In this document: positions 48,677 through 64,000 of the stretch, in pieces
Numbering within the stretch: the first letter of the stretch is position 1
Layout of the letters: each line of letters opens with the position of its first letter
From: Candidatus Marinamargulisbacteria bacterium
GTDB taxonomy: Bacteria; Margulisbacteria; Marinamargulisbacteria; UBA817
Assembly (NCBI GenBank): GCA_023262965.1
Contig: JALQXX010000001.1
Span: forward strand, 22,581 to 86,580
Direction of reading: 5' to 3'
DNA: 64,000 nt
Program-made: the position numbers and the translations under genes
The notes under the pieces: generated by a model
Databases searched by the model: none
What the model was told of the DNA's origin: nothing
What the model saw: the letters and a program-made list of their open reading frames with translations, nothing else

Positions 48677-48696
48677 CTCATGTATAATAAACAAAA

Positions 48697-49530: not shown

Positions 49531-49544
49531 CCATTTATAAGCGT

Positions 49545-49567
49545 GAATCATTGGATCCCCATGATTC
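49545..49567. terminator. weak inverted repeat in the convergent gap (GAATCAT-N9-ATGATTC)
   Basis: 7-bp stem between convergent genes; flanks are AT-rich with no strong U-run. Confidence 0.25.
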
Positions 49568-49601
49568 TATATTGGAAAATAACAGCTAATTAAAAAATAT
49601 A

Positions 49602-49952: not shown

Positions 49953-50023
49953 TCCAAGACTCCTCTATGTTCATGTTTTATATCTCTCTTATCATTCAGT
50001 GTACACCACGATTGTGGAAATAT

Positions 50024-50794
50024 TCAATGAATGTCCCGAATATAGTCCACAACGGTATGGTGAACCACACGATTACTGGTGATGACGTTTCCTGAATAAA
50101 TTGTGTCTTTGCCGGATGTGTCACTAAATTGCCCGCCCGCTTCTTCGACAATAATTTTGAGCGGGGCAATATCCCAGGCATTTAAATTAAAGTCAATTGC
50201 GTATTCGCCGCAGCCCATGGCCACCAGCATATGCGGATAAAAATCCCCAAAGCCGCGCTGACGCCCGGTATCCCGCAGTAAATCAATCACACGGTCGGGT
50301 TGCTTGGACGCTTCGGAGCCGAATAAACTCCCGTAAAAGCCGTTGGCATTCGCTAGCGAATCAATGCCCGATACGTGAATACGATCGCCATTGTAGTAGG
50401 CCCCGTGGCCTTTTTGCGCCCACCATCGGCCATGAAGGGCGGGTGCCGAGACCATGCCCGCAATGACCTGACCATTATCTTCAATCGCAAATAATGACCC
50501 AAAAAAGGGCAGTCCGCGAATAAAATTTTTGGTGCCATCAATGGGGTCAATAATCAATTTTAAGGTCGAATTGGGGTGTAATGTACTGCCGTACTCCTCC
50601 CCAATAATGGATAGGGGGAGATTCTGATCACGAACCGTCGCGCGGATGTGATTTTCAATGGCCAAATCGGCCGCAGATACCGGCGTTTGGTTATCTTTAA
50701 TTTGCACATCCAATTTGCTGGATTTGAAGTGACTCATAGCGATTGTGTCGGCATGATCGGCGATGGTGGTTAAAAAGGGTATCCAGTGTGTCAT
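50024..50794 (-). CDS. inositol-monophosphatase-family phosphatase (SuhB/HisN/CysQ-like)
   Basis: IIDPIDGTKNF and WDIAPLKIIVEEAGG motifs. Confidence 0.8.
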   Translation of the reverse strand: MTHWIPFLTTIADHADTIAMSHFKSSKLDVQIKDNQTPVSAADLAIENHIRATVRDQNLPLSIIGEEYGSTLHPNSTLKLIIDPIDGTKNFIRGLPFFGSLFAIEDNGQVIAGMVSAPALHGRWWAQKGHGAYYNGDRIHVSGIDSLANANGFYGSLFGSEASKQPDRVIDLLRDTGRQRGFGDFYPHMLVAMGCGEYAIDFNLNAWDIAPLKIIVEEAGGQFSDTSGKDTIYSGNVITSNRVVHHTVVDYIRDIH

Positions 50795-50848
50795 AGGGTT
50801 TATTATGCCGTAATTGGTGTCAACACACAATCGGCAAATACTGGGGGA

Positions 50849-52144
50849 TTATAGACGCAGTTGATTGTGATGATCACGTATAAATCCCTGAATAACCGCT
50901 AATGTGTCATCAATGACCGCATCATTGTGCTCGGAGGATACAAAATTGGCTTCATAGGGCGATGGTGGAATTAAAATGCCGTGGTCTACCATGTAATTAA
51001 AATAGGCTTTAAAAAGATCGGTATTGCTATTGTTCACGTCGGTTAGGGATCGAACCGGTGTTGCGCTAAAAAATACAGTGAACATGGTGCCAAGCGCATT
51101 CACCTGCATGGCCACATTGTTCGCCTGACACAGATGCTGTATGCCTGCAACCAAGCGGTGGGTTTGACGTTCAGCGGTCTCGTACACACCGTAATCGGCA
51201 ATCAACGACATCATCGCCAATCCCGCACGCATAGCCAGCGGGTTGCCCGATAATGTGCCGGCTTGATATACCGGCCCCAAGGGGGATACGTGGTGCATTA
51301 ATGCCGTGGATCCGCCATATGCGGCACAGGGCAATCCCCCACCAATCACCTTGCCCAAACAGGTGATGTCCGGTGCAATCCCATAATGACCTTGAGCGCC
51401 GTTTTTGTGAACACGAAATCCCGTCATTACTTCATCAAAAATGAGCAGGGATCCGTGATCTGATGTGATGCGTCGACACGCATGTAAAAATTCTGGGTCG
51501 GGCAATACAACCCCCATATTGCCGCACACCGGCTCCATGATTAATGCCGCAATTTGAGCGCCGTATTGATCAAAACAGGTCGTTAAAGCGGCCGTGTCAT
51601 TAAAGGGAATAACATGCGTAAATGCGGTGACTTCGTGAGGAATCCCCGCACTGCTGGGCGTTCCCAAGGTTAGCCCGCCGGATCCCGCAGATACCAATAA
51701 ACTGTCCACATGACCATGGTAACCGCCCTCAAATTTAACCAAGTGCGATCGATTCGTCGCGCCACGCGCCAGTCGAATGGCACTCATCGTGGCTTCGGTG
51801 CCGGAATTCACAAATCGGATGGTTTGCATCGCGGGCATCATCGATTGAATACGCTTGGCCAAGGCGGTTTCATGCCGGGTCGGGGCCCCAAAGGAGGTTC
51901 CTTTAATAATCGCGTTGTGAATGTCGGCAATCACCATATCATGGGCGTGACCAGCCAGGAGTGGCCCGTAAGACAACACGTAATCGCAGTAGCGCTTGCC
52001 CTCAACCGAGGTCACATAGGGGCCTTTTCCGGATTCAATAAATATTGGGTCGCGACCAACCGCTTTGTAGGCACGAACAGGGCTGTTGACGCCGCCTACC
52101 AATACGCTTTGAGCATCCGCAAATAAGGTGTTACTTGTTACCAT
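50849..52144 (-). CDS. hemL: glutamate-1-semialdehyde 2,1-aminomutase
   Basis: GGVNSPVRAYKAVG, class-III aminotransferase fold; 431 aa. Confidence 0.9.
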   Translation of the reverse strand: MVTSNTLFADAQSVLVGGVNSPVRAYKAVGRDPIFIESGKGPYVTSVEGKRYCDYVLSYGPLLAGHAHDMVIADIHNAIIKGTSFGAPTRHETALAKRIQSMMPAMQTIRFVNSGTEATMSAIRLARGATNRSHLVKFEGGYHGHVDSLLVSAGSGGLTLGTPSSAGIPHEVTAFTHVIPFNDTAALTTCFDQYGAQIAALIMEPVCGNMGVVLPDPEFLHACRRITSDHGSLLIFDEVMTGFRVHKNGAQGHYGIAPDITCLGKVIGGGLPCAAYGGSTALMHHVSPLGPVYQAGTLSGNPLAMRAGLAMMSLIADYGVYETAERQTHRLVAGIQHLCQANNVAMQVNALGTMFTVFFSATPVRSLTDVNNSNTDLFKAYFNYMVDHGILIPPSPYEANFVSSEHNDAVIDDTLAVIQGFIRDHHNQLRL

Positions 52145-52173
52145 TGATTATAGTCTACTAAAAAACACCCGCA

Positions 52174-54126
52174 TTAGGCTATATAGCGATTCTGTTTACT
52201 TTCAATGGTATTTAATAAGGACTGAAGAATGGTTTGATATAGCCGATCCCCATAAACCGCATCCTCCACCGTGTCATCGATGTTGGGATTATCATTGACT
52301 TCAATAATATATACGTCGTTATTCACCTCTTTTAAGTCAATACCATACAGTCCACGACCAATGGCTAAGGATGCCTGCACCGCTTTTTTGATGACCCGTG
52401 GAGGCACCGATTGAATGGGCAGCGTTTCCCAGTTTCCCGAAGATGCGTGATCGTTTTCCCAGTGATAAATTTGCCAGTGACCTGACGCCATGTAATACTT
52501 GCAGGCAAATAGGGGTTGATTATTAATTATCCCAATTCGCCAATCATAAGGTGTTGGCAAAAATTCCTGCGCAATAACCAAATCACTTTTTTTGAACATG
52601 TCTTTTAAAATACGGTAATAGTCGTCGCTGGTGTTCGCCAAATACACCCCTTTCGAAAACGATGATTCGGGTAATTTTAAAACAATCGGGAAGGTGGAAA
52701 TGTTCAGCGTCGTGTGATCATACAATTTAGGGGATACAATCCAGGATTTGGGTAGGGATAGCCCGCGATTGGTGAGACGTTCATGCAGATAAATTTTATT
52801 GGAGCACATCAAGATGGACCACGGATCATCAATCACGACCAAGCCTTCGGTATACGCTTGACGGGAGATGTCATAGGTGTGATGGTTAAGGGCCGTTGTT
52901 TCACGAATAAACAGTGCATCAAACTCACAAATCCGCTTGCGATCTCTTTTGGTAATAAATTCAACATATAATCCCATTTTTTGACCAATATCTTTGAATT
53001 TTTGCAGCGCTACTTCACAAGACGGTGGTGTGGGGTCATCGGGATTGACCAGTATCGCGACATCGTATTTGTAATTTTTTAATTTGATTCGGTTGTATCG
53101 TTTTTTGGCAATGTATTTTTTAAGGCCGCTTTTGAATATATCGGGGTAGTTATTAAGAACGTAATTCAAACTGATATGTTTTAATTTGTAAATTGTCCAG
53201 TGCGTCTTTTTTTTGAATTCAATACGAATAAAGGGCCATTCAAATAATCGAAATAGTTGCTTGGTTATTTTATTGAATTTTTTTTCGGTAGCTAAACCAA
53301 AAATCATCGTGATTTGGATATGCGAGCGGCTGTCTTTATCTAAAATGGTTTGAAACACAGGATCGATTTCATACAGAAGGGAATCGTGGACCCCCATGTT
53401 GGTATAATCGTTAATGGTTACAATAGAGGGCATAACGCGATGGCCGCGTGCGGATGCCAATAAGGATACGTAATACCCGACGCTGTGAATAGTATAGGTT
53501 CGACTTAAATTGATAACGTGATAAAAGTTTGAGTGAATAAACACCTTGTTGGTAAAGTAGTCCTGACTGGAAAATAATTGTAACGAGGTGAGTCGGGATA
53601 ATTGTTTTTGATGGGTATCGGCAATAATAATCATACGGCCTTCCGGATTGGCGCGATGATTAATCCACTCCATTCGAACCGCGTGATAACCCGATTCATA
53701 ATAATTGGGCAACGATTCTACTGATGTAAATCCATAGGATGTGTACCAACGCAATAGACGGGCATTGGCAGCATCGGCTTCAAGCCGAATCCGTTCGTAA
53801 TTCATATCGACGGCGTAAGTCATTACATGGCTGAGTAATGCATGACCTACCCCGTGATGTTGATGGTCTGGCAATACCCCAATGGAATATAACCGAATGG
53901 TTTTTTTGTATATAAAAAATATGGCGCTGCCACATAGTACGTTGGTATCGTTTTCCTGAATGTAGGCCACCAGTACGTGCTGATAGTGGCTGGATACACT
54001 ATTGGAAATACTGGCCATGGAACTTTGTAGGTACTCTTGAAAAGCGGTTTTCTCTAATTCACACAGAAACGAATAATCGTCGCTGGTGGCGTTTCGAATA
54101 TAAATGGTTGGCTTTGATTTTATCAT
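52174..54126 (-). CDS. bifunctional GNAT N-acetyltransferase plus RimK-like ATP-grasp ligase (Ngg-like architecture)
   Basis: N-terminal GNAT (VLPDHQHHGVGHALL); C-terminal ATP-grasp (FPIVLKLPESSFSKGVYL, IAQEFLP, YGIDLKEV...VYIIEVNDNP); 650 aa; ATGA-overlaps the cobA/hemD stop. Confidence 0.65.
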   Translation of the reverse strand: MIKSKPTIYIRNATSDDYSFLCELEKTAFQEYLQSSMASISNSVSSHYQHVLVAYIQENDTNVLCGSAIFFIYKKTIRLYSIGVLPDHQHHGVGHALLSHVMTYAVDMNYERIRLEADAANARLLRWYTSYGFTSVESLPNYYESGYHAVRMEWINHRANPEGRMIIIADTHQKQLSRLTSLQLFSSQDYFTNKVFIHSNFYHVINLSRTYTIHSVGYYVSLLASARGHRVMPSIVTINDYTNMGVHDSLLYEIDPVFQTILDKDSRSHIQITMIFGLATEKKFNKITKQLFRLFEWPFIRIEFKKKTHWTIYKLKHISLNYVLNNYPDIFKSGLKKYIAKKRYNRIKLKNYKYDVAILVNPDDPTPPSCEVALQKFKDIGQKMGLYVEFITKRDRKRICEFDALFIRETTALNHHTYDISRQAYTEGLVVIDDPWSILMCSNKIYLHERLTNRGLSLPKSWIVSPKLYDHTTLNISTFPIVLKLPESSFSKGVYLANTSDDYYRILKDMFKKSDLVIAQEFLPTPYDWRIGIINNQPLFACKYYMASGHWQIYHWENDHASSGNWETLPIQSVPPRVIKKAVQASLAIGRGLYGIDLKEVNNDVYIIEVNDNPNIDDTVEDAVYGDRLYQTILQSLLNTIESKQNRYIA

Positions 54127-55562
54127 AAATTCTCCAAAATTTTCTCAATAATAGATTCAATGCTAGGGTAGGTTGATTCGTGAATGTCTTGAGCCCCATA
54201 CCCACACAATGCGCGGGTTGTTTGAGGACCGATACTCATAATCGTATGGGCAGAAAATGCGGGGTATACGGCGTGTAAGCGATGGACTGAGGCGGCATTC
54301 ATTACAATAAACGTGTCCGCAGGATGAATCCATTCAAGGGCCATCGGAGGGATGCTGGGGACTGTGTTGGTGTATACGGTTACATAGGTGACACGATCGG
54401 AGTGGGTGGTTTCCAACACGCGGTCCGATTCGCTGGAGCTGGGGACAAGCACGCGATCATGAGGGGAGATGGTATCTAAAAAGGCGGTGAAGCCTTCAGC
54501 GGAGGGATGGGTTGCAATATGATCGGGGGTAATGCCGTAATCCTGCAGCGCGTTTTGGGTTTGGGTGCCAACCACGCCAATACGGGTGTGAGCCCATTGC
54601 CGAATATCCCCGTGGGTGTGCCGAATGGATTCAAAAAAGCCGCAAACCCCGTTTTGACTGGTGAATAGCAGATGGGAAAATGCCGATGGGGTGATGCTGG
54701 TTAATGCATCGGGGTGTGTGGTGATGGTATTTAAGGGAAGTTGCAGGGTTTCGGCCCCCAATGTGTGAAGGGCGTTGGCCAACTTGGATTGTTGATGGGC
54801 TGCCCGGGTCACCACAAATCGACGGTTGTGCAAGGGTAGTCGATGGCGCCAATCCATGCGATGACGGATGGTATCGCCCACAACCACCAGAGCAGGGGGT
54901 TGTACCTTATGCGTTCCTTGAATGGCTTGAATCGTTTGAAGGGTACCCGTTACCACGCGTTGATTGGCGGTTGTTCCCGATTCAATAATCGCAATCGGGG
55001 TGTCTTTTCCGCGTAATGGGGTTAATGTGTCCACAATATAATCCAATTGATATAATCCCATCATAATGACCAGTGTATCCGCAGATGGCCATTCCGGAGC
55101 CGGTGTATCATGAGCACGAGTAGCCGTCACAAAGGCCAGTGAATGCGCGGTATCCCGATGGGTGACGGGAATGCCTGCGTAGGTAGGGGCCGCAATTGCG
55201 GAACTGATGCCCGGTATGATTTCAAATGGAACCTGGTGGGCGGTGAGCCAATCAATCTCTTCGGCGCATCGACCGAATATCATGGGGTCCCCGCCTTTTA
55301 AACGGACCACGCATTTGCCGGCCCGGGCATCGGCAACCAACCGCTGGTTGATGGCGGTTTGTGTTACCGAATGCCGCCCCTTTTTCTTGCCAACACATAT
55401 TTTTTCAGCATGATCATTGGCCATAATCAGATTGGGGTGCACCAAATAATCGTATAAAATAACATCGGCCAATTGAATGATACGGTGGGCCTTTTGGGTA
55501 ATGAGCTCCGGATCACCCGGGCCTGCACCCACCAAGTAGACAGCGGTTGGGGCAATGGTCAT
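54123..55562 (-). CDS. fused uroporphyrinogen-III C-methyltransferase / uroporphyrinogen-III synthase (CobA-HemD)
   Basis: N-terminal SUMT (VYLVGAGPGDPELIT, GGDPMIFG); C-terminal HemD-like half. Confidence 0.8.
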   Translation of the reverse strand: MTIAPTAVYLVGAGPGDPELITQKAHRIIQLADVILYDYLVHPNLIMANDHAEKICVGKKKGRHSVTQTAINQRLVADARAGKCVVRLKGGDPMIFGRCAEEIDWLTAHQVPFEIIPGISSAIAAPTYAGIPVTHRDTAHSLAFVTATRAHDTPAPEWPSADTLVIMMGLYQLDYIVDTLTPLRGKDTPIAIIESGTTANQRVVTGTLQTIQAIQGTHKVQPPALVVVGDTIRHRMDWRHRLPLHNRRFVVTRAAHQQSKLANALHTLGAETLQLPLNTITTHPDALTSITPSAFSHLLFTSQNGVCGFFESIRHTHGDIRQWAHTRIGVVGTQTQNALQDYGITPDHIATHPSAEGFTAFLDTISPHDRVLVPSSSESDRVLETTHSDRVTYVTVYTNTVPSIPPMALEWIHPADTFIVMNAASVHRLHAVYPAFSAHTIMSIGPQTTRALCGYGAQDIHESTYPSIESIIEKILENL

Positions 55563-56407
55563 AGTGTTAATAATCCATGAATCACCTGCTCAGGCGAATC
55601 ATACGTCATGTAGTGACCATGATTCATGTGCTCTACAAACACCCGCCATTCACGCCTTGGCGTGTAGTAAACGCCTAATGGGCAATGGCAATTGAATGCA
55701 ATACCTTCGAGGATGCGGTAATAGTCTGCCCCACGTTTTTGGGTGTCGTTATCCCCAATCGCAGCTAAACAATCCCCAATACGGGTATCATTTGCACGAT
55801 GCTGGAGTGCAATTATCCCTTGACCGGGTGCTGGAACAAAATCCATGGGATCCAACTCATGGGTGATTTGGTGATCCAGCCCCAAGCGTTGCAGTCCGGC
55901 TGTGGATAAAATAAGCCCGTCGTACCCCCGTTCTTTGGTAAGCGTAATACGGGTGTCACTATTACCACGAATGGGTTCGCAGGTAACCAAGGGGTACAGC
56001 ATTCGACATAAGGCTTGCCGACGCATACTGCCCGTTGCCAAGCGGGTAGGCTCCGTTTTTAAACAGCGATTGGTGACCATAATCACGGCATCGGTGGCAC
56101 GTTCCTGGGTGACATACCGCCCATACACCAAATCCGATGACGGCCGCGCGGTAATGTCTTTAAACGAATGGACCCCAATATCAATCTGATGGGCGCTTAG
56201 GGCGACTTCAATTTCCTTAACAAATACATTTTTGCCACCAATTTCGGATAAAGGGTTGGGATTGCGGTCCCCGGATGTTTGAATGATATGGATTGTAACA
56301 AGGCTATGGGGATAGGCCTTCTGAAGCATTTTTTGAATATATCCCGCTTGCTTTTGGGCCAACGCTGATCCGCGTGTCCCTAAGCGTATTGGGATAGGGG
56401 CTGACAT
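55559..56407 (-). CDS. hemC: hydroxymethylbilane synthase (porphobilinogen deaminase)
   Basis: IRLGTRGSALAQKQA; start at the internal Met. Confidence 0.85.
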   Translation of the reverse strand: MSAPIPIRLGTRGSALAQKQAGYIQKMLQKAYPHSLVTIHIIQTSGDRNPNPLSEIGGKNVFVKEIEVALSAHQIDIGVHSFKDITARPSSDLVYGRYVTQERATDAVIMVTNRCLKTEPTRLATGSMRRQALCRMLYPLVTCEPIRGNSDTRITLTKERGYDGLILSTAGLQRLGLDHQITHELDPMDFVPAPGQGIIALQHRANDTRIGDCLAAIGDNDTQKRGADYYRILEGIAFNCHCPLGVYYTPRREWRVFVEHMNHGHYMTYDSPEQVIHGLLTL

Positions 56408-57426
56408 AATTTTTTTTCGGACCGATAGTGATCCCAACGGTGTAATTCGGATATGGCGTTGTCAATAAAGCGCATAACCGGTTCGATATCGTTTTTTCGG
56501 GTTTGAATGGTTTGATTGGATATGGCTTCTAATTCCGCTACCCCCACAAGTGTTACGGATGCCAACGTTCCGCAATCCGGGGATACATTTCGTGGAATCC
56601 CCAAATCAATGATGGTTAGGGCATGGTCAATGTGCCCAATGTCACAGCAACGAATAAAGGGCTCTTTTGATGAAATGGCAATGTAGAGCGTTCGAAATTG
56701 ATGGAATTGGTGTCGCACGGTTGCAAATGGGATCACCTGAATATGGGGTATTGTCTCCGCCAAGGTGTCCACACGACTCATGGTTCGATTGGCAATGGTC
56801 AGCTGACTATGCCCCATAGCGCTTAATTTAACCAAGGCCCGTTGAATCATCATCCCCGATCCAATCAATAACATGGGCTCGTTTAAAAAGTTGGGATTGT
56901 GTTGCTTAATCGCTTCGATCCCAATCGAACTAATGGAATGTGCCCCAGCAGAGATTTGCGTCTTGGTACGGGCTTCTTTTCCAGTAGCAATAATGGACTG
57001 AAATACTTTGTTTAAATGCGCGCGTGTGGCCCCAAATTCCATGCAAAATGCATGGCCTTGCTTAATTTGTGTTAAAATCTCACTTTCTCCGATCACCATG
57101 GATTTGAGGCCGCAGGCCAGCTCATGCAGATGGCGTAAGGCACTGTTGTGATGGTAAAGCGTCGTAATGGTCGACAAAATGGACGTCGCAATGCCCGTTA
57201 AGGCATGAATTTTTTGATGAAGAATGCTAACGGCTTTTTGAGGATGGGGTGATGTAAAGACCCATTCCGTACGATTGCAGGTGGATATAATAACCATTTC
57301 GTCAAAAAATAATGTGCCCAGTAATGTGGATAAATAGTGTGTCATATCATCTTTATTGCACGATACTTTTTCAAGTAGAGCAATAGGTGCGGTTTTAAAA
57401 TCAATGCTTAAAACAACAATCATCAT
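56380..57426 (-). CDS. hemA: glutamyl-tRNA reductase (short, 348 aa)
   Basis: STCNRTEWVF active-site Cys; NADP-binding GSGMM. Confidence 0.85.
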   Translation of the reverse strand: MMIVVLSIDFKTAPIALLEKVSCNKDDMTHYLSTLLGTLFFDEMVIISTCNRTEWVFTSPHPQKAVSILHQKIHALTGIATSILSTITTLYHHNSALRHLHELACGLKSMVIGESEILTQIKQGHAFCMEFGATRAHLNKVFQSIIATGKEARTKTQISAGAHSISSIGIEAIKQHNPNFLNEPMLLIGSGMMIQRALVKLSAMGHSQLTIANRTMSRVDTLAETIPHIQVIPFATVRHQFHQFRTLYIAISSKEPFIRCCDIGHIDHALTIIDLGIPRNVSPDCGTLASVTLVGVAELEAISNQTIQTRKNDIEPVMRFIDNAISELHRWDHYRSEKKLCQPLSQYA

Positions 57427-57522
57427 AACACAACCAGTTTAGATATATTCTCAAAAATGTTCAATGATTTTTGGGGGGTATAATGCCGATAATTCGTTTT
57501 AGATTGGTAAAAATTGGCCGGT

Positions 57523-58437
57523 TTAGGTGGCGGACTGTATAGATGATACTTCTAAAATCAGTCGGTCCCCGGGACTGACACGCTGTTTGAACGCAATTTT
57601 TCTGGCAGCTATTGTGGTTACAATGCCTTGTGGCGATATGGATAAGACCATGCCTTTCATATCGCAGATTGGAATAAAGGTATCGGATACAATGCGCGCA
57701 TCCATTTGCCACACGCCCGCGGATAGTTCAGAACGATGGTGTAAATCGGTGACGGTGTCTTCCAACATTTGCCACTGAGATACCCCCATCATCACGGGAT
57801 TTCCGGGAAAATGGCCCCGGGTTAAGGGGTGTTGAAGGGAGTACGTTAGCCCGTACAACGCATAGCCCGATTGGTGGGTGTAGCGGGTATCAATAAAGGT
57901 CATGTGCGGATTTTTATACGCAAACGGTGCAATCGCTACCGGATGGGCAAGCGCGTCGGGGTGCATGGGCGGCACCGGATCGGGACGGTTGGGTTCGGAG
58001 GGGGCTTCTTGGGTATAAAAAGCCGTTAAATCCCCACGCGCCTGTGTGTCTCCGCAGGATAAGGTGAATGCGTGTTTGTAAAATCCGTTCCTGTGACTGC
58101 GTTTTTGGGTGGCTCCTTGAATGGGGGTGTCGGCCGTGCAGGGCCCGCCGGTTAATGTGAAATTACTGATGCCAGCAAAATAGGCAAAATAGCCCGGTTT
58201 GATGGCCCCGGAACTACTAATGCAGGCTAAGGCCGCGATTTCGGTGGTTAAAGGCGTGGGGAGTTGGGGGGGGCTATGATTGTCCCAAAATAGGGTTCGT
58301 CCCAAGGTATCGTTGGGCGATATGTGTAGCGAAAAATCACTCGAATCGGGGGATGTAATTGTAACCGTGTCCAATAACATGTTTTGGTAACGATGGGGAA
58401 TGCGGTCACAAATAGCGGTATAATCCAATACGGTCAT
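57523..58437 (-). CDS. tandem hotdog-fold protein, FabZ-like (degenerate N-terminal copy, catalytic-His-containing C-terminal copy)
   Basis: N-half: IPHRYQNMLLDTV and YFAYFAGI (FabZ LPHRFPFLLVDRV / YYFAGI) but no HFPG. C-half: RGHFPGNPVMMGV and AFKQRVSPGDRLILEV. ATGA overlap with the upstream sigma factor. Confidence 0.6.
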   Translation of the reverse strand: MTVLDYTAICDRIPHRYQNMLLDTVTITSPDSSDFSLHISPNDTLGRTLFWDNHSPPQLPTPLTTEIAALACISSSGAIKPGYFAYFAGISNFTLTGGPCTADTPIQGATQKRSHRNGFYKHAFTLSCGDTQARGDLTAFYTQEAPSEPNRPDPVPPMHPDALAHPVAIAPFAYKNPHMTFIDTRYTHQSGYALYGLTYSLQHPLTRGHFPGNPVMMGVSQWQMLEDTVTDLHHRSELSAGVWQMDARIVSDTFIPICDMKGMVLSISPQGIVTTIAARKIAFKQRVSPGDRLILEVSSIQSAT

Positions 58438-59189
58438 GTAGACATGGTAATTTTTTGACGCAGTTTTTTCAAGGCATCATTTAATAATCGGGATACGTGC
58501 ATTTGGGATATGGCTAGCCGATTGGCAATTTCTTTTTGGGTCAGCCCTTCGTAAAAACGCAACTGAATTAATTTTTTTTCGCGTTCGGATAACACGGTCA
58601 ACGCATTATTAATCATCTCGCGCGTCAGCATATCATCATTTTTGTCGCCAGTGCCTAAATTATCCATCAGAGAAAATGTGTCGTTACTGGATTTGCTGGT
58701 TTGTATGGGTTTGTCTAAGGACACTACACGAAACGATTGCCCCGCCTCCATAGACTCCAAAACCGCCTCTTCGGTGAGGTCCAATCCCTTTGCAATTTCC
58801 GGAACGGTGGGCGCACGATCCCACTCTGCGGTTTTTTCTTTAATATAGTGACGTATTTTGGAATACTGCTCTTGTAATTTTCGAGGCAATTTAACAATTA
58901 AGGCTTTATCGCGAATGTAATGACGAATATCACCGATGATGGTGGAACTGGCATAGGTTGAAAAGGCAATATTGCGGGATATGTCGTAGGTTTCCAAGGC
59001 TTTTAGAAGACCCATGTTGCCGGTTTGAATCAAGTCGGGCACATCATCGGTATTGAAGGCTAATTTGCGAGCAATGAAGGTGACTAAGTTCTGATACGCA
59101 ACTAAAATAGACTCTTTGAGTGACTCATTTTTTGTTTCGAGATACTGGCGAACCAGGGCTTCACGTTCATGGGTATTGGCTTGCGTCAT
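58434..59189 (-). CDS. sigma-70-family group-3 alternative sigma factor (SigB/SigF/FliA-like)
   Basis: Region 2 (YASSTIIGDIRHYIRD), region 4 HTH (LTQKEIANRLAISQMHVSRL); 251 aa. Confidence 0.85.
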   Translation of the reverse strand: MTQANTHEREALVRQYLETKNESLKESILVAYQNLVTFIARKLAFNTDDVPDLIQTGNMGLLKALETYDISRNIAFSTYASSTIIGDIRHYIRDKALIVKLPRKLQEQYSKIRHYIKEKTAEWDRAPTVPEIAKGLDLTEEAVLESMEAGQSFRVVSLDKPIQTSKSSNDTFSLMDNLGTGDKNDDMLTREMINNALTVLSEREKKLIQLRFYEGLTQKEIANRLAISQMHVSRLLNDALKKLRQKITMST

Positions 59190-59261
59190 CTGTGTTAATA
59201 GTAAATATAACTGATGGACAAATCAATTTGATTTTTAGGACGCGTGGTTTAAAATAAATAG

Positions 59262-61454
59262 ATGGTGCTGAATCAATCCAAATCGTATGCGTATGATTCC
59301 CGAAAAATTCAACCGGGGGATGGTTTTATATGCTTGCCCAAAGGGGATGCGTATATTAACGATGCTTTGGCACGTGGTGCAACGGAGGTGGTTCGATTGG
59401 ATCGCTTGGGTTTTGCTCAGGAAAGCCATCGGTACTATGGAGACCCCACCAAACAGGTGTGCTTGATTGGGGTTACGGGTACCAATGGGAAGACATCGGT
59501 GGCGCATTTTACGGCGCAATTGTTGCGGCAATCGGGGTATTCGGTATTGGTTATTGGAACCATGACGTCGGCCTTAACCACGCCAGAATCGTGGGATATT
59601 GCAAAGCAGATTCGACACCATGTGGATAATGGGGGTACGCATGTGGTAATGGAAGTATCATCGCATGGTATTGATCAAGGGCGTGTGTTGGAATGCGCGT
59701 TTGATGTCAAATGCTTGACCAATATTACCCATGATCATCTGGATTATCATAAGACCTTTGATGCTTATAAAGCCACTAAGATGCACTTTATGATCGATTA
59801 CCCGGGCGTCGCAATTTATGCGGATGAGGTGCCGTTATTGGCGGAGAATTTGCCACAACTTATGGGGGCTTTTCATAAAAAAAATGTGGCAACGGCCATG
59901 GCTATATGTCGTATTTTGGGAATCAATGCCACGACCTTGAAGGCCGTTTTGCCCAAACTCACCGCGCCTGCGGGACGGTTTCAACCGGTGATTTTGGGGC
60001 AGCCCTTTCATATTATTGTGGATTTTGCCCATACCCCGGATGCGTTGGCGGTTGTGCTAACCGATGCGTTGGCATTGGTGAATGGGCATCGGGAGCGGGT
60101 TCGGGTTGTATTTGGATGTGGGGGGGATCGGGATACCCGTAAACGGTCAGAAATGGGGCGAATTGCGGGTGAATATGCCGATCATGTGTACCTAACATCG
60201 GACAATCCGCGATCGGAATCGCCGGAGGCCATTATTGCGGCGATTCAAACGGGGGTGTCGAGGCCCGGTGTCCAAGCCATTACAGATCGTCATTCGGCTA
60301 TCGCGCGGGTGATTGCGGATGCGAACCCACGTGATATTGTGGTGATTGCGGGTAAAGGGCATGAAGCCTATCAAGTCATGCGCTGGTATCGCTATCAGAG
60401 TGATGATGTGGCCATAGCCACGTATGAAGTGATTCGCCAAAATCGGTATCATACATCGGTTACCTGGGTGATGGATGATTTGAAAACGCCTGCGGATGTG
60501 GTGTTTATAACAAAAAATAAGTCGCAAGCATTGCCCTACGCACCGATTCCCTATTGTCAGGTGAAGCCAACACCGTCGCAGGGCCGTGTCCGGGATTATT
60601 TGGCCAAAATCAAAGGTCCTAAACTGTGTATATTGGAATCGGCAAATCGATTTTCGATGATGGGATGGTTGCACTATGTGTTGGGGCGTTTGGGCAGTGT
60701 AACCGTTGTGGACGGCATGACCTTGCCGACAGTACCCCATCAATTGGCGCAGATGATGTTAATTGAACAAACGGTGAACCCGGTGATTATTCGATTGGAC
60801 CCCAATCACCCGGGATTCTTATCCCAGTGGGTATCGGTTATTCAGCCCGAGCATATTATTGTGGGTGACAATTATCACGCTAATGGGTATGTCGCGCCAT
60901 CGGTTGTGACGGTGTTAAAAAATAAAGTGACAATGCGTGATTATGCGTGTCCATTATGGATTCACGATCGCATGGCCGATATCAACGATGCGCTTGGCGA
61001 TTATGCGTATTTACGATGTGTTAAGGCGCCGCATTGGGTGGATTATTGTGTGAGGCTCGCCCAACAATTAATGGTTGAGTTGGATAAATACCACAGCCCG
61101 CTTTCGGATATGTTTTATGAATACAGTATGACCCGGCGGTGGCTGCAAAAAGTGCAGTGGTCGGATGGTTCTGTAACGGCATACGCCGCATTGGGTTCAT
61201 CGGATGAATGGGCGATGCACCAATATGTGGATTATATGAATCATGTATCAGCGACGGTGTATCACCATATTGCCACTTCGGAGGGGGATCGGTGGGCGCG
61301 GTATTTGCGGCAATGGTGCCGATCCACGGACCGCATTCAGGTGTATGATCCACCAACCGTGACGGCCTTCGCGAATACCGTGCAATCGCGCCCCGATGCC
61401 CTGCATGTCATATGGTGCCAGCATTTTTCGGACATGAACACATGGACTACGTAA
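59262..61454 (+). CDS. murE: MurE-like UDP-MurNAc-tripeptide ligase (~400 aa) fused to a ~330-aa C-terminal domain of unknown function
   Basis: GVTGTNGKTS P-loop, DNPR specificity motif (LTSDNPRSE), GKGHE; the 330 aa after GKGHE...QNRY have no Mur-ligase motifs. Confidence 0.7.
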   Translation: MVLNQSKSYAYDSRKIQPGDGFICLPKGDAYINDALARGATEVVRLDRLGFAQESHRYYGDPTKQVCLIGVTGTNGKTSVAHFTAQLLRQSGYSVLVIGTMTSALTTPESWDIAKQIRHHVDNGGTHVVMEVSSHGIDQGRVLECAFDVKCLTNITHDHLDYHKTFDAYKATKMHFMIDYPGVAIYADEVPLLAENLPQLMGAFHKKNVATAMAICRILGINATTLKAVLPKLTAPAGRFQPVILGQPFHIIVDFAHTPDALAVVLTDALALVNGHRERVRVVFGCGGDRDTRKRSEMGRIAGEYADHVYLTSDNPRSESPEAIIAAIQTGVSRPGVQAITDRHSAIARVIADANPRDIVVIAGKGHEAYQVMRWYRYQSDDVAIATYEVIRQNRYHTSVTWVMDDLKTPADVVFITKNKSQALPYAPIPYCQVKPTPSQGRVRDYLAKIKGPKLCILESANRFSMMGWLHYVLGRLGSVTVVDGMTLPTVPHQLAQMMLIEQTVNPVIIRLDPNHPGFLSQWVSVIQPEHIIVGDNYHANGYVAPSVVTVLKNKVTMRDYACPLWIHDRMADINDALGDYAYLRCVKAPHWVDYCVRLAQQLMVELDKYHSPLSDMFYEYSMTRRWLQKVQWSDGSVTAYAALGSSDEWAMHQYVDYMNHVSATVYHHIATSEGDRWARYLRQWCRSTDRIQVYDPPTVTAFANTVQSRPDALHVIWCQHFSDMNTWTT

Positions 61455-62347
61455 TTCCCCTGTTGTGGGTGCTGGGGATGGGAATAGCCTACCGAATGTT
61501 TATTCGATGGGCCCATCGGCGGCAAATGAATCAAGTGATTTATGAGGACGCGCCTCAGCGCCATCATCAAAAAAGCGTTACCCCGACCATGGGGGGCGTG
61601 GTTATTTTGGGGAGCTTTGTGGTGGGAATGATTGGCGTCAACGCCTGGACACCGGTGACGGTATGGGTGGTGATGACAACGCTACTATTTGGGGGCATTG
61701 GCCTTATTGATGATGGGCTATCGTTGCGACGTAAGTCCAATAAGGGGATGTCGGCCAAACAAAAATTGGGCATGCAGGTGGGGGTTGCGGTGGTGGCTAT
61801 GATTGCTTGGCACTACGCTATTGCGCCCTTGATAGGGTGGCAATGGCTGCTATATGGGTTCTTGCTGGTAGGCGCCTCGAATGCGACCAACTTAACGGAC
61901 GGCTTGGATGGGTTGTTGGGGTCGGTCATGCTGATAACCATGGGCGGGCTGTGGTGGGTGTGTCAGGCACAGGGATTGCCGGTGGAAGGGCGTATGGTGG
62001 TGGTAATGATGGTGTCACTAGCCGTTTTTTTGGTATTTAATTGGCATCCGGCCCGATTGTTTATGGGTGATACGGGGTCGTTATTGTTGGGCGGTTTTTT
62101 TGCGGCAACGGCTGTGGCAACGGGTCAGTGGCCGATTATGATTGGTTTGGGGGCGATTTATATTGTGGAGACCCTGAGTGTTATGATTCAAGTGATCGGG
62201 TTTCGTTACACCCGAAAGCGGGTATTTTTGATGAGCCCGTTGCACCACCATTTTGAATTAATGGGGCTTTCGGAGCGTGTGATTGTGCTGCTGTTTGCGG
62301 CCTTTCATGGAGTATGTACATGGATTCAGTTAAGCCGATACCTGTAG
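61442..62347 (+). CDS. mraY: phospho-N-acetylmuramoyl-pentapeptide transferase
   Basis: TPTMGGVVIL, NATNLTDGLDGL; start is 61412 or 61442. Confidence 0.9.
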   Translation: MDYVIPLLWVLGMGIAYRMFIRWAHRRQMNQVIYEDAPQRHHQKSVTPTMGGVVILGSFVVGMIGVNAWTPVTVWVVMTTLLFGGIGLIDDGLSLRRKSNKGMSAKQKLGMQVGVAVVAMIAWHYAIAPLIGWQWLLYGFLLVGASNATNLTDGLDGLLGSVMLITMGGLWWVCQAQGLPVEGRMVVVMMVSLAVFLVFNWHPARLFMGDTGSLLLGGFFAATAVATGQWPIMIGLGAIYIVETLSVMIQVIGFRYTRKRVFLMSPLHHHFELMGLSERVIVLLFAAFHGVCTWIQLSRYL

Positions 62348-63483
62348 CCGTTTTGGGAGATGGGGTGACCGGTCAAGCGGTTTCGGCCTATCTGCGTCAA
62401 TCAACGGCGTATGAACAGGTGACCGTGGATGCGGCCCAATGGGTGGTGGTGAGTCCGGGCATTCCCCCGCGAAAATGGCCCAAAACCACGGCGGAGATAC
62501 TATCGGATAATGAATTTGCGTACCGTATTTTGCATCAAAAAAACCCCAAGTTGGTGATGATTGGTGTGACTGGAACCAATGGAAAAACAACGGTGGTATC
62601 CGCATTGGCCCATGCCTTGGGTGTTCGGGCCTACGGGAATATTGGACGACCTTTGATACAGGACGTCGACACCATCGATGTGTCAAAACCCATTGTGATC
62701 GAACTGAGCAGCTATCAATTGGTTACCACAACCACCATGCGGTTTACCATTGGGGTGATTATGAACATTGAGCCGGATCATTATGATTGGCATGAATCGT
62801 ACGAAAACTATCGCGATGCCAAATGCCGGTTAAGCACGCTGTCGTCGGTGCTGTATGCCCCACAGGCGGTATGGTCGCATTGTGCGAAGGACCACTGTGA
62901 ATGGGTGAATACCGATGCCTTAACGCCGCAATGTCTGCCACCATTGACGGCTCGCCATGATCAGCATAATGCGGCATTGATTCAAGCCATTTTGCAGCGA
63001 CTGGGGCAAGCGCCTGCGTATGTTCAACAGAAAATGGCCACATTTGAACGCCCCCCCTTTCGGTACGAGACGATTTTTTGTTCGGAGGACTTATGTATTA
63101 TTAATGATTCCAAAGCCACCAATATGGCGGCAACAGAGGCGGCTTTGGCGAGTGTGGTTGGGGGGCCGGTATTGCTCATTTTATGCGGTCAAGCCAAATC
63201 CGATTATACGATGGATTTTATGAATCGTGTAACCGAGCGATGTGACTGGGTGTATGCAGCGGGGGGATTATCACGCAATCGCCATCAGTTTCCGGTAAGC
63301 AGTCAGGGGGCTATTCAATTTTTTGATACGTTATACGATGCCACATGTGCGGCACTGATGCAATGTGTCAAGGGGATCATTTTATTCTCACCCTCAGCCG
63401 CAAGTTTTGACGAGTTTACGAATTATGAGGCCCGTGGAAAGGCGTTTACAACCTATGTTGACCACATTCAGACTATGGCGTAA
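62314..63483 (+). CDS. murD: UDP-N-acetylmuramoylalanine--D-glutamate ligase (short form)
   Basis: N-terminal Rossmann-like domain, GVTGTNGKTT P-loop; position between mraY and ftsW. Confidence 0.8.
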   Translation: MYMDSVKPIPVAVLGDGVTGQAVSAYLRQSTAYEQVTVDAAQWVVVSPGIPPRKWPKTTAEILSDNEFAYRILHQKNPKLVMIGVTGTNGKTTVVSALAHALGVRAYGNIGRPLIQDVDTIDVSKPIVIELSSYQLVTTTTMRFTIGVIMNIEPDHYDWHESYENYRDAKCRLSTLSSVLYAPQAVWSHCAKDHCEWVNTDALTPQCLPPLTARHDQHNAALIQAILQRLGQAPAYVQQKMATFERPPFRYETIFCSEDLCIINDSKATNMAATEAALASVVGGPVLLILCGQAKSDYTMDFMNRVTERCDWVYAAGGLSRNRHQFPVSSQGAIQFFDTLYDATCAALMQCVKGIILFSPSAASFDEFTNYEARGKAFTTYVDHIQTMA

Positions 63484-64000
63484 GTGGGATGCCAAACTGC
63501 TGATCCCCGTCCTATTTATTGGGATTATGGGGTACATTATGATTTTTTCGACCACATCGTTTAAAGGACTGTCGGATTATAATGATGCGTATTATTTTAT
63601 AAAGCGACATACCATTTATTTGATGGTTGGGTTGGTGGGATTTATGATTGCCAATAGTATTCCGATTCGGTTGTATCGGCGGTACAGTGTCTGGGGCTAT
63701 ATAATGGCGATTGGGTTATTGTTGTTGCTGTTTATTCCGGGGATTGGGACCACGATTGGCGGGGCTACCCGTTGGCTACGGTTGGGTACGATTCAATTTC
63801 AACCCGTGGAGATTGTCAAATTTTGGTGGGCGGTAGCGGTGAGTAAGGTGCTATCGAGCAAGCAGGCCCATCTGCAGTCGATTCAAATGGGGGTGGTGCC
63901 GGTGGTGATTGTTATGACGGTGCCCATTGCGTGTTTAATGATGCAACCCGATTTGGGAAATGCCATTTTAACATTGATGGTTGGGGTTGTGGTTTTGCTG
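63455..64000 (+). CDS. ftsW: SEDS-family peptidoglycan glycosyltransferase FtsW/RodA (5' partial, runs off the window)
   Basis: Frame reads MLTTFRLWRKWDAKLLIPVLFIGIMGYIMIFS...PDLGNAILTLMV, multi-TM SEDS; ATG at 63455 overlaps the murD 3' end. Confidence 0.75.
   Translation, partial: MLTTFRLWRKWDAKLLIPVLFIGIMGYIMIFSTTSFKGLSDYNDAYYFIKRHTIYLMVGLVGFMIANSIPIRLYRRYSVWGYIMAIGLLLLLFIPGIGTTIGGATRWLRLGTIQFQPVEIVKFWWAVAVSKVLSSKQAHLQSIQMGVVPVVIVMTVPIACLMMQPDLGNAILTLMVGVVVLL

What the first reader, a model, noticed from the sequence alone, without database searches (positions are those of the whole stretch)
57523..59189. Alternative sigma factor co-transcribed with a pseudo-dimeric double-hotdog FabZ-like protein
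A group-3 (SigB/SigF/FliA-like) sigma-factor gene ATGA-overlaps a 304-aa protein built from two hotdog repeats. The first repeat keeps the FabZ N-terminal PHRY/LLD and YFAGI segments but lacks the catalytic HFPG. The second keeps RGHFPGNPVM and the C-terminal PGD motif. No anti-sigma factor (RsbW/SpoIIAB-type kinase) is adjacent. The only STAS antagonist in the window lies 8.5 kb away (49602-49952). A dehydratase-like protein in the anti-sigma position is unusual and may be a regulatory partner or a sigma-dependent lipid-modifying enzyme.
Basis: partly seen in the sequence, partly recalled or inferred. Interest (0 to 1): 0.5.

Follow-up and report, generated by a model that had tools for sequence, protein, structure and literature searches.

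The report
Conserved sigma factor and dehydratase pair
An alternative sigma factor gene is joined to the gene for an unusual two-in-one fatty-acid dehydratase-like protein. The pair stays together across the uncultured phylum Margulisbacteria, which makes it a real, undescribed pairing, but whether the second protein is only an enzyme or also controls the sigma factor is not known.

Summary
A 251-aa SigB/F/G-type sigma gene (58434..59189, minus strand) overlaps by ATGA a 304-aa protein (57523..58437) made of two FabZ-like hotdog repeats.

The two repeats should form one composite FabZ-type active site. His209 sits in GHFPGNPVMMG in repeat 2, and Glu66 lies on the central helix of repeat 1. Both are invariant in 126 of 126 full-length family members. 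The mirror site is degenerate.

The protein belongs to an uncharacterised family of about 310 aa, with at least 119 clusters at 50% identity. In one large clade, 47 of 47 testable non-identical loci have the same sigma gene immediately upstream. Four contig-edge loci add to this, one of them labelled Margulisiibacteriota, and a named Marinamargulisbacteria genome shows the pair too. Of 52 junctions, 29 have a 4-bp overlap. The pair persists although both flanks change.

Other clades, some labelled Planctomycetota, have no such sigma (0 of 18). One subclade has an ECF sigma directly downstream instead.

The best reading is an active single-site dehydratase co-expressed with the sigma as its envelope-lipid effector. 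A role as sigma regulator is not excluded. I found no literature precedent.

The parts
58434..59189 (-). Group-3 (SigB/SigF/SigG-like) alternative sigma factor, 251 aa
   Evidence: Pfam Sigma70 r2, r3 and r4. TIGR02980 scores 220.8 bits against a 234.35 cutoff. Orthologues are 64-72% identical in near relatives and 43-50% in Marinamargulis-type loci. NCBI names one orthologue a 'B/F/G family' sigma.
58434..58437 (-). ATGA overlap of the sigma stop and the hotdog start (translational coupling)
   Evidence: Read directly from the sequence. The same 4-bp overlap occurs in 29 of 52 non-identical junctions, a 1-bp overlap in 3, a longer overlap (14 or 17 bp by my start-codon choice) in 2, and gaps of at most 45 bp in the rest.
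57523..58437 (-). Fused FabZ-type double-hotdog protein, 304 aa (end coordinate includes the stop codon)
58012..58437 (-). Hotdog repeat 1 (about aa 1-142). It keeps PHRY..LLD, the central helix with Glu66 and YFAGI, but lacks the HFPxxP motif.
   Evidence: Profile alignment to FabZ residues 22-122. Model helix at residues 61-76. E66 is present in 126 of 126 members; the FabZ-equivalent His position is His in only 10 of 126.
58240..58242 (-). Codon of Glu66, the predicted catalytic base supplied by repeat 1
   Evidence: GAA read. Aligns with the FabZ central-helix Glu. Invariant in the family.
57913..58011 (-). Pro-rich inter-repeat linker (about aa 143-175)
   Evidence: Low pLDDT at residues 145-148 and no regular secondary structure. 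Poorly conserved and gap-rich in alignments.
57526..57912 (-). Hotdog repeat 2 (about aa 176-304), with GHFPGNPVMMG, the central helix and FKQRVSPGD
   Evidence: Matches the FabZ His loop in Pfam, NCBIfam and PDB searches. Model helix at residues 217-234.
57811..57813 (-). Codon of His209, the predicted catalytic His
   Evidence: CAT read. G208, H209 and F210 are each present in 126 of 126 members.
59190..59261 (.). 72-bp divergent intergenic region between the sigma gene and the murE fusion; it must hold both promoters
   Evidence: A TTGATT-16-TAAAAT match faces murE. Relatives carry conserved back-to-back extended -10 boxes here; the window does not.
59262..61454 (+). Conserved divergent neighbour: MurE fused to a degenerate MurF-like domain, heading the mraY-murD cluster
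   Evidence: Pfam Mur_ligase_M and Mur_ligase_C in the N-terminal half. Divergent murE is present in nearly all sigma-linked loci. Weak MurF similarity in the C-terminal half.
56380..57426 (-). hemA, 96 bp downstream on the same strand. No predicted terminator lies between, so it may be co-transcribed. This neighbour is lineage-specific.
   Evidence: Pfam GlutR_N. No minus-strand terminator found in 56300-59400. Relatives have other genes at this position.
49602..49952 (-). Orphan STAS (RsbV/SpoIIAA-like) gene with the DSVGLG Ser motif. It is context for the anti-sigma question, not part of the operon.
   Evidence: Pfam STAS 63 bits. phmmer against B. subtilis RsbV gives E 9.5e-8. Sequence read.

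Best explanation
The locus is a two-gene operon. It encodes a SigB/F/G-type alternative sigma factor and, translationally coupled to it, a catalytically competent fused FabZ-type dehydratase.

The two hotdog repeats pack like a FabZ dimer and build one composite active site. His209 comes from repeat 2 and Glu66 from the central helix of repeat 1. The mirror site has decayed. The enzyme most likely dehydrates a 3-hydroxyacyl thioester (acyl-ACP).

Because its gene rides on the sigma transcript, its level tracks the sigma factor's level. I read it as the built-in envelope or lipid-remodelling effector of this sigma. The operon sits back-to-back with the peptidoglycan (mur) operon.

Shown: gene structure, fold, residue conservation, and conserved linkage. 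Inferred: dehydratase activity, the ACP substrate, and the role as effector rather than regulator.
For: Fold and active site:
- H209, within G-H-F, and E66 are each present in 126 of 126 full-length members. The mirror-site residues are not conserved: His at position 54 in 10 of 126, Glu226 in 79 of 126.
- E66 aligns with the FabZ catalytic Glu, and H209 lies in the stretch that matches the FabZ catalytic His loop.
- The FabZ-like F-K-x-R-V-x-PGD segment is kept in repeat 2.

The family also exists without a sigma:
- 0 of 18 testable loci in other clades, some labelled Planctomycetota, have the upstream group-3 sigma. Their contexts are varied. A sigma-independent enzymatic function is therefore ancestral.

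Co-expression:
- 47 of 47 testable loci have the sigma immediately upstream. Four contig-edge cases add to this. Two reciprocal look-ups starting from the sigma also find the pair.
- Junctions are overlapped, or separated by at most 45 bp, in 52 of 52 cases.
- The pair survives loss of the murE neighbour and at least three different downstream contexts.

Precedents:
- ECF41 sigma genes are co-transcribed with conserved enzymes that are their only detectable targets, and ECF41 activity depends on a fused C-terminal domain (PMC3426412).
- The title of PMC3875570 reports a role for an ECF sigma factor in fatty-acid biosynthesis and membrane fluidity in Pseudomonas aeruginosa (listed; paper not read).
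- Cj0977 is a sigma-28-regulated hotdog protein (PDB 3bnv title).

The STAS protein has the phosphorylatable Ser motif. This implies a conventional RsbW-type kinase and anti-sigma elsewhere in the genome.
Against: - No activity, substrate or expression data exist.
- The model's His loop (residues 207-215) has low confidence.
- Scores against the curated FabZ and FabA models are far below cutoff.
- In relatives, the conserved promoter elements upstream of the sigma look like housekeeping extended -10 boxes, not an autoregulatory SigB-type promoter. The 'sigma induces its own effector' step is therefore unsupported.
- Strict conservation of translational coupling over such a deep divergence (sigma 43% identical) is more typical of physically interacting partners.
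- A different subclade of the same family sits directly upstream of an ECF sigma. This hints at a closer tie to sigma factors than that of a mere target gene.
- I could not check whether these genomes carry a canonical fabZ or an rsbW.
Confidence: 0.5

Rival explanations
1. Regulatory partner. The double-hotdog protein binds the sigma factor. It would act as an anti-sigma factor, or as a 'trigger enzyme' or ligand sensor whose acyl-thioester occupancy sets sigma activity. This would replace or supplement an RsbW-type kinase, and is analogous to the hotdog sensor domain of FapR.
For: - The sigma-hotdog adjacency is invariant in about 50 non-identical loci. Sigma identity falls to 43% and hotdog identity to 26-30% across them, and both flanks change.
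- A 4-bp overlap is kept in 29 of 52 junctions.
- No RsbW-like gene is found in the window, and none next to the pair in the related loci I annotated.
- Predicted promoters in relatives are of housekeeping type, so control may be post-translational.
- A separate subclade (hotdog identity 46-61% within it) has an ECF sigma 20-40 bp downstream and no other candidate anti-sigma beside it.
- The hotdog protein evolves about 1.9 times faster than the sigma, as anti-sigma factors typically do relative to their sigma (own knowledge).
Against: - The catalytic His and Glu are invariant in all 126 members. A pure binding protein would not need them.
- Most non-Margulis members have no sigma nearby.
- Distance-matrix correlation between sigma and hotdog (r 0.71; partial 0.40) is no higher than either shows with MurE.
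- Overlapping gene boundaries are common in these compact genomes; the hotdog and ruvC genes also overlap by 4 bp.
- The STAS Ser motif implies an RsbW-type kinase elsewhere.
- No paper links anti-sigma factors to hotdog folds.
Confidence: 0.2
2. Housekeeping replacement. The fused protein is simply the FabZ of Margulisbacteria fatty-acid synthesis. Its position after the sigma gene is inherited synteny within a conserved mur / sigma / hotdog block and has no functional link.
For: - The active site is intact and FabZ is the closest sequence relative.
- The gene appears in every lineage of the clade that was sampled.
- The divergent mur cluster is conserved too, so the whole block is syntenic.
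- No canonical fabZ was seen in any Margulis-type sequence held, though that is only about 0.4 Mb in total.
Against: - The protein diverges about 1.6 times faster than MurE and 1.9 times faster than the sigma. Identity falls to 29-37% between subclades. That is fast for an essential core enzyme.
- Homologues labelled Planctomycetota are presumably accessory copies. This is an inference: such genomes normally carry a canonical fabZ.
- The pair stays intact where murE adjacency is lost and where downstream genes differ. This points to selection on the pair itself.
Confidence: 0.2
3. Specialised-metabolite dehydratase. The protein is a fused analogue of the ApeI:ApeP heterocomplex and works in an aryl-polyene-like or other secondary-lipid pathway.
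For: - Precomputed Pfam hits to PF22818 ApeI-like.
Against: - No ketosynthase, ACP, reductase or other biosynthetic-cluster gene lies next to it in any of about 70 loci. The neighbours are mur, hem, ruv, dnaA and ZnuA genes.
- The PF22818 hits are flagged weak or faint, and my own hmmscan did not reproduce them.
Confidence: 0.05

Closest known systems
FabZ (3-hydroxyacyl-ACP dehydratase; TIGR01750, PF07977)
   Different: The two hotdogs are fused in one 304-aa chain and only one of the two sites is kept. Scores lie far below the curated cutoffs (37.9 against 155 bits). The His loop is followed by MMG instead of PGV. The gene is co-transcribed with a sigma factor rather than with lpx or fab genes.
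ApeI:ApeP dehydratase heterocomplex (PDB 6qsr; Pfam PF22818 ApeI-like)
   Different: The two units are separate polypeptides inside an aryl-polyene gene cluster. Here they are fused, and no biosynthetic-cluster genes are nearby.
HadAB of M. tuberculosis and the MFE-2 hydratase 2 domain (double hotdogs with one active site; PMC4491049)
   Same: An asymmetric double hotdog in which one half supplies catalytic residues and the duplicate site has been lost.
   Different: Those belong to the MaoC/hydratase-2 lineage, with an Asp-His dyad in a single subunit. Here the chemistry is FabZ-type, with His and Glu split between the two halves.
PKS and FAS dehydratase (DH) domains
   Different: In PKS DH domains the His is in the N-terminal hotdog and the acidic residue in the C-terminal one (own knowledge). 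Here the order is reversed, which suggests an independent fusion. This protein is stand-alone, not part of a megasynthase.
ECF41 sigma factors with their conserved co-transcribed 'COE' enzymes (PMC3426412)
   Same: A sigma gene lacks an adjacent anti-sigma gene but has a phylogenetically conserved, co-transcribed enzyme gene.
   Different: ECF41 is a group-4 sigma regulated by its own C-terminal extension. Here the sigma is group 3, 251 aa long, without an extension, and its regulation is unknown.
RsbV-RsbW-SigB and SpoIIAA-SpoIIAB-SigF partner-switching modules
   Same: The sigma is of the same family, and a STAS antagonist with the phosphorylatable Ser exists in the window.
   Different: No GHKL kinase anti-sigma gene lies at the sigma locus in any of about 50 loci. 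The only conserved partner gene encodes a hotdog protein.
FapR (hotdog-fold malonyl-CoA sensor fused to an HTH; PDB 2f41)
   Same: A hotdog domain is used in transcriptional control of lipid synthesis. This is the model for the regulatory rival.
   Different: FapR is a single hotdog that lacks catalytic residues and is fused to a DNA-binding domain. Here the catalytic residues are invariant and no DNA-binding domain is present.

Membership tests
FabZ (TIGR01750 / NF000582 / PF07977) | Hotdog fold (long central helix wrapped by an antiparallel sheet) | tested here: met
FabZ (TIGR01750 / NF000582 / PF07977) | Catalytic His in the GHFPxxP loop | tested here: met
   Met in repeat 2 only: H209 in RGHFPGNPVMMG, present in 126 of 126 members. 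In repeat 1 a His occupies that position in only 10 of 126.
FabZ (TIGR01750 / NF000582 / PF07977) | Catalytic Glu on the central helix of the partner hotdog | tested here: met
   E66 of repeat 1 aligns with the FabZ LILEAMAQ Glu and is present in 126 of 126 members. The Glu of repeat 2 (E226) is present in only 79 of 126.
FabZ (TIGR01750 / NF000582 / PF07977) | Score at or above the curated family cutoff | tested here: not met
   TIGR01750: 37.9 against 155.15. NF000582: 37.5 against 113. PF07977: 18.5 against 23.
FabZ (TIGR01750 / NF000582 / PF07977) | Single hotdog subunit of about 150 aa that forms homodimers | tested here: not met
   The chain is 304 aa, with two non-identical repeats joined by a Pro-rich linker.
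FabZ (TIGR01750 / NF000582 / PF07977) | 3-hydroxyacyl-ACP dehydratase activity | not testable with these tools
   Needs an enzyme assay or complementation.
SigB/SigF/SigG sigma subfamily (TIGR02980) | Sigma-70 regions 2, 3 and 4 in a protein of about 250 aa without region 1.1 | tested here: met
   Pfam r2 at residues 31-96, r3 at 107-164, r4 at 196-245.
SigB/SigF/SigG sigma subfamily (TIGR02980) | Score at or above the curated cutoff | tested here: inconclusive
   The score is 220.8 against 234.35, so it is the best model but falls just below the cutoff. Orthologues score 214-220. NCBI names one orthologue 'B/F/G family'.
SigB/SigF/SigG sigma subfamily (TIGR02980) | Locus encodes an RsbW/SpoIIAB-type kinase anti-sigma and a STAS antagonist | tested here: not met
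   Neither is adjacent in the window or in about 50 related loci. One orphan STAS gene lies 8.5 kb away.
RsbW/SpoIIAB-type anti-sigma factor | GHKL (HATPase_c) kinase fold | tested here: not met
   The partner protein has a double hotdog fold. It gives no HATPase_c hit.
ApeI:ApeP dehydratase / PF22818 | Significant match to PF22818 | tested here: inconclusive
   Precomputed hits are listed but marked weak or faint. My hmmscan at E up to 10 returned only PF07977.
ApeI:ApeP dehydratase / PF22818 | Embedded in an aryl-polyene cluster (KS, ACP, KR and others) | tested here: not met
   The neighbours are mur, hem, ruv, dnaA and ZnuA genes.
PKS/FAS DH double hotdog | Single-chain double hotdog | tested here: met
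PKS/FAS DH double hotdog | His in the N-terminal hotdog, acidic residue in the C-terminal hotdog, part of a megasynthase | tested here: not met
   The order is reversed here (Glu66 N-terminal, His209 C-terminal), and the gene is stand-alone. The PKS arrangement is from my own knowledge.

The most novel reading that the evidence does not exclude
The fused FabZ-like protein is a new kind of sigma-factor regulator. It would be an enzyme-derived, acyl-thioester-sensing hotdog protein that binds its co-translated SigB/F-type sigma and gates it according to lipid or envelope status. In another clade it would do the same for an ECF sigma. In Margulisbacteria it would take the place of, or act alongside, the RsbW kinase.
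Probability: 0.2. Interest if true: 0.8.

Novelty: new variant of a known kind. Interest (0 to 1): 0.55.

Why it matters
Group-3 SigB/F-type sigma factors are textbook examples of control by kinase anti-sigma factors and STAS antagonists. Here, across a whole uncultured phylum that is sister to the Cyanobacteria, the only conserved partner gene of such a sigma encodes a lipid-type dehydratase with an intact active site.

Either reading gives a testable entry into the biology of organisms known only from metagenomes:
- The operon may hard-wire a membrane-lipid modification into a stress or developmental sigma.
- It may instead reveal a metabolic-enzyme-based way of controlling a sigma factor.

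The work also defines an uncharacterised family of single-chain FabZ pseudo-dimers (at least 119 clusters at 50% identity). Its His and Glu are arranged in the opposite order to PKS DH domains. This bears on how double-hotdog enzymes evolve.

Tried and rejected
- Anti-phage defence system. PADLOC gives nothing for the hotdog protein and only a partial MzaA-type sigma similarity. The locus is core-genomic, next to the mur genes.
- Aryl-polyene, ladderane or other biosynthetic-cluster role. No biosynthetic neighbours occur in any locus. The 'Kuenenia' label of L008 sits on a 61% GC contig with unrelated context.
- SigB- or SigF-type autoregulatory promoter. I found none. Relatives instead share back-to-back extended -10 boxes, TGnTAnnnT on both strands 16 nt apart: 34 and 31 of 43 loci against 8.5 expected. 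The window's own 72-bp spacer lacks them.
- Co-evolution (mirror-tree). Sigma and hotdog distances correlate (r 0.71), but no more than either does with MurE. The partial correlations are 0.38-0.47, so the test is uninformative.
- FecR neighbour in L034 and L037. It is a secreted FecR/TPR protein with no anti-sigma domain and no sigma nearby. I did not count it as a sigma link.
- Natural sigma-hotdog fusion proteins (Rosetta stone). None appears among the sigma hits (219-282 aa) or the hotdog hits.
- Canonical fabZ or rsbW in the same genomes. I could not test this. Only the window and short flanks of related loci were available, and none was found there.
- Complex prediction of the pair. This was not possible, because the structure tool takes single chains from the window only.
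- AFDB fold search. It was unavailable.
- Literature. No paper holds both 'anti-sigma factor' and 'hotdog', and none ties an ECF sigma to a hotdog partner.
Full report
**Observation**

The minus strand carries a 251-aa ORF (58434..59189) and a 304-aa ORF (57523..58437). The stop of the first and the start of the second share the tetranucleotide ATGA.

The first ORF is a sigma-70 family protein with regions 2, 3 and 4. Its best curated model is the SigB/SigF/SigG subfamily TIGR02980, at 220.8 bits against a cutoff of 234.35. It scores well ahead of FliA/WhiG, which gives 136 bits.

The second ORF matches FabZ models only weakly: TIGR01750 gives 37.9 against 155 bits, and Pfam FabA gives 18.5 against 23. 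A profile of the family nevertheless aligns both halves to solved FabZ structures. Residues 3-102 align to FabZ residues 22-122, and residues 199-229 align to the FabZ His loop.

The neighbours are a divergent murE-type gene 72 bp upstream and hemA 96 bp downstream, followed by hemC and a cobA/hemD fusion. No RsbW-like ORF exists in the window. The STAS gene at 49602..49952 is genuine.

**Anatomy of the hotdog protein**

An AlphaFold2 model built on nine homologues has pLDDT 82.8 and pTM 0.86. It shows two sheet-plus-long-helix units, with helices at 61-76 and 217-234, joined by a poorly ordered Pro-rich linker.

- Foldseek places FabZ on each half (target-normalised TM about 0.8) and double-hotdog dehydratases on the whole chain.

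In FabZ, each active site joins a His of one subunit to a Glu on the partner's central helix (established knowledge). Here His209 lies in RGHFPGNPVMMG of repeat 2. Glu66 of repeat 1 aligns with the FabZ Glu.

I aligned 126 full-length members of the family. His209 and Glu66 are present in all 126. The reciprocal pair is not conserved: His at position 54 occurs in 10 of 126 and Glu226 in 79 of 126. The protein is thus a single-chain FabZ pseudo-dimer with one conserved composite site. That is the signature of a working enzyme rather than a decayed scaffold. The model's His loop (residues 207-215) has low confidence, probably because the alignment was shallow.

**Family**

The word-indexed search found only nine clusters, 39-48% identical. 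An exhaustive profile search of 1.84 billion cluster representatives found 328 proteins at E up to 1e-3. Of these, 119 had E up to 1e-30, and nearly all were 300-335 aa and aligned end to end. This is a real, uncharacterised family of about 310 aa. The sources call its members a generic FabZ/FabA dehydratase, a hotdog family protein or a hypothetical protein.

**Conserved linkage**

I collected loci by exact-protein look-ups, one genome scan and one metagenome scan. I then searched each locus with profiles of the sigma and of the hotdog protein.

The hotdog sequences fall into two groups.

- In the group that contains the window protein (locus GC 0.28-0.53; identity to the window protein down to about 26-30%), all 47 non-identical loci with enough upstream sequence have an orthologous group-3 sigma gene immediately upstream on the same strand.
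- Four further contig-edge loci show the sigma C-terminus. One of them is L007, labelled Candidatus Margulisiibacteriota.
- In the other groups (mostly GC 0.6-0.7, some members labelled Planctomycetota), 0 of 18 loci do.

Look-ups that started from the sigma side gave the same pair. One was a sigma 56% identical to the window's. The other was the sigma of a named Candidatus Marinamargulisbacteria genome, GCA_003265975.1.

Between the deepest branches the sigma is 43-50% identical and the hotdog protein 29-37%. Among 52 non-identical junctions:

- 29 have the 4-bp overlap.
- 3 have a 1-bp overlap.
- 2 have a longer overlap (14 or 17 bp by my start-codon choice).
- The rest have gaps of at most 45 bp.

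A divergent murE (or murE-murF) gene lies upstream in most loci but is displaced or absent in L079/L096, L080, L085 and L098. Downstream genes fall into at least three unrelated arrangements:

- hemA in the window.
- A convergent unknown gene plus ZnuA.
- ruvC-ruvA-dnaA-dnaN-recF.

The two-gene unit is therefore the most stable element of the neighbourhood.

**Other clades**

Contexts in the non-Margulis groups are heterogeneous. Two patterns stand out.

- In one subclade (L109/L110, L113, L114, L118; hotdog identity 46-61%), an ECF sigma factor of about 200 aa follows the hotdog gene after 20-40 bp. A cysH-like gene follows the sigma, and a formyltransferase gene precedes the hotdog gene.
- In L034 and L037, a secreted FecR/TPR protein follows. 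It lacks an anti-sigma domain, and I give it little weight.

The ECF adjacency is a second, independent association of this rare family with a sigma factor of a different group and in a different gene order. With only a handful of independent context types, two sigma adjacencies are unlikely by chance. I put the chance at roughly 1%, assuming sigma genes make up about 1% of genes. This is a post hoc estimate.

**Operon and promoters**

Upstream of the sigma gene, most Marinamargulis-type loci share two extended -10 boxes (TGnTAnnnT). One faces the sigma, about 35-45 nt before its start, and the other faces murE 16 nt away. They occur in 34 and 31 of 43 loci, against 8.5 expected from shuffles. 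These look like housekeeping-type promoters.

I found no SigB- or SigF-like motif. The window's own 72-bp spacer lacks the boxes; only a TTGATT-16-TAAAAT match faces murE. No terminator is predicted between the hotdog gene and hemA. In this organism the transcript may therefore run on into the haem genes.

**The anti-sigma question**

The STAS protein carries the DSVGLG motif. Its Ser is the phosphorylation site in RsbV and SpoIIAA (motif knowledge is my own). This implies a cognate RsbW-type kinase somewhere in the genome. I could not search whole genomes. The window and about 0.4 Mb of related flanks contain no RsbW-like ORF and no canonical fabZ.

A mirror-tree test was uninformative. Sigma and hotdog distances correlate (r 0.71), but no better than either does with MurE. 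The hotdog protein evolves about 1.9 times faster than the sigma and 1.6 times faster than MurE.

**Mechanism**

My preferred reading (confidence 0.5) is that the protein is an active single-site 3-hydroxyacyl-thioester dehydratase made from the sigma transcript. It would act as the sigma's envelope-lipid effector.

Published parallels exist:
- ECF41 sigma genes are co-transcribed with enzyme genes that are their only detectable targets; ECF41 activity depends on a fused C-terminal domain (PMC3426412).
- An ECF sigma factor is reported, in the title of PMC3875570 (paper not read), to have a role in fatty-acid biosynthesis in Pseudomonas aeruginosa.

The regulatory rival (0.2) draws on several points:
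- the strictness of the coupling;
- the lack of a local anti-sigma gene;
- the housekeeping-like promoters;
- the ECF-linked subclade.

Against it stand:
- the invariant catalytic residues;
- the family members that lack any sigma;
- the STAS motif.

A moonlighting 'trigger enzyme' would reconcile the two readings. The housekeeping-FabZ rival (0.2) cannot be dismissed without a genome census, but the fast divergence argues against it. A role in a specialised biosynthetic cluster (0.05) finds no support in gene context.

**Comparison with known systems**

- By sequence, the protein is closest to FabZ.
- By architecture, it is closest to the ApeI:ApeP heterocomplex and to single-site double hotdogs such as HadAB and MFE-2 hydratase 2 (PMC4491049).
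- By whole-chain shape, it is closest to PKS DH domains, but with the His and the acidic residue in the opposite halves.

It fails the curated FabZ thresholds and the single-subunit criterion. I therefore file it as a FabZ-derived new family, not as FabZ. The sigma is SigB/F/G-like but lacks the canonical partner genes at its locus.

No paper in the searchable library joins anti-sigma factors with hotdog proteins, or describes this pairing in Margulisbacteria.

**Verdict**

The feature is real and strongly conserved, and it is undescribed in the literature I could search. I class it as a new variant of known kinds: an alternative-sigma operon with a conserved non-canonical partner, and a fused FabZ pseudo-dimer family. 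Interest is moderate to high (0.55). The mechanism is open and directly testable, but the most probable reading is an enzyme effector rather than a new regulatory principle.

**Limits**

- Taxonomic labels rest on three named records.
- The loci come from metagenomes and were de-duplicated only for identical sequences.
- There are no expression, interaction or activity data.

Noticed in passing
window 59262..61454 (+): The 730-aa 'MurE' is a fusion. The N-terminal half has the Mur ligase M and C domains. The C-terminal 330 aa or so has no Pfam hit, but it shows weak colinear similarity (E 6e-5) to the separate MurF of Marinamargulis-type loci. The P-loop position reads ILESANRFS instead of GITGSAGKT. 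This suggests a degenerate, fused MurF in this subclade. The fusion is shared by L001, L004, L029, L044 and L058, while L038, L040 and L121 keep separate murE and murF genes.
   Followed up: partly
window 38776..41685 (+): A 484-aa protein has FliG middle and C-terminal domains behind a long N-terminal part that looks membrane-associated by eye (not analysed). MotA-like and MotB/OmpA-like ORFs follow it. I saw no other flagellar genes in the parts of the window I annotated.
   Followed up: partly
window 49602..49952 (-): An orphan STAS (RsbV/SpoIIAA-like) gene carries the phosphorylatable Ser motif DSVGLG. Its neighbours are an inositol-monophosphatase-like gene and a nitrilase-like gene (both named by eye from the translations, not tested). 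No kinase or phosphatase partner lies nearby.
   Followed up: partly
L109/L110, L113, L114, L118 (e.g. L118 4240..7354): In a high-GC subclade of the same hotdog family, the gene lies in a tight same-strand run: formyltransferase, double hotdog, ECF sigma factor, cysH-like reductase. This is a second, independent adjacency of the family to a sigma factor.
   Followed up: partly
L053, L055, L060, L064, L067, L068, L072, L108 and others, about 35-62 nt upstream of the sigma start: Conserved back-to-back extended -10 boxes, such as TGATATTAT on the sigma strand and TGTTATAAT on the murE strand, lie 16 nt apart. This is a compact divergent promoter pair. It is absent from the window's own spacer.
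   Followed up: partly
L034 9006..10184 and L037 6454..7641: A secreted FecR-domain plus TPR protein is encoded 16-19 bp downstream of the double-hotdog gene in two loci of unassigned taxonomy (hotdog cluster 2). A divergent ClpX-like AAA+ gene lies upstream.
   Followed up: partly
window 1..64000: GC content steps from about 0.38-0.42 (6-44 kb, the ribosomal-protein and rpoB/C cluster) to 0.46-0.52 (44-64 kb). GC skew stays positive over nearly the whole window, with no lasting sign change.
   Followed up: no
window 52174..54126 (-): A 650-aa fusion of a GNAT acetyltransferase with a RimK-like ATP-grasp N-terminal domain and an ATP-grasp ligase ends the same-strand run that begins with the sigma gene and passes through the haem genes.
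   Followed up: no
L008 (contig DYIT01000051.1): The contig is labelled Candidatus Kuenenia stuttgartiensis but is 61% GC. From memory, that species is about 41% GC, so the contig is probably mis-binned. Its double-hotdog gene should not be read as anammox-specific.
   Followed up: no
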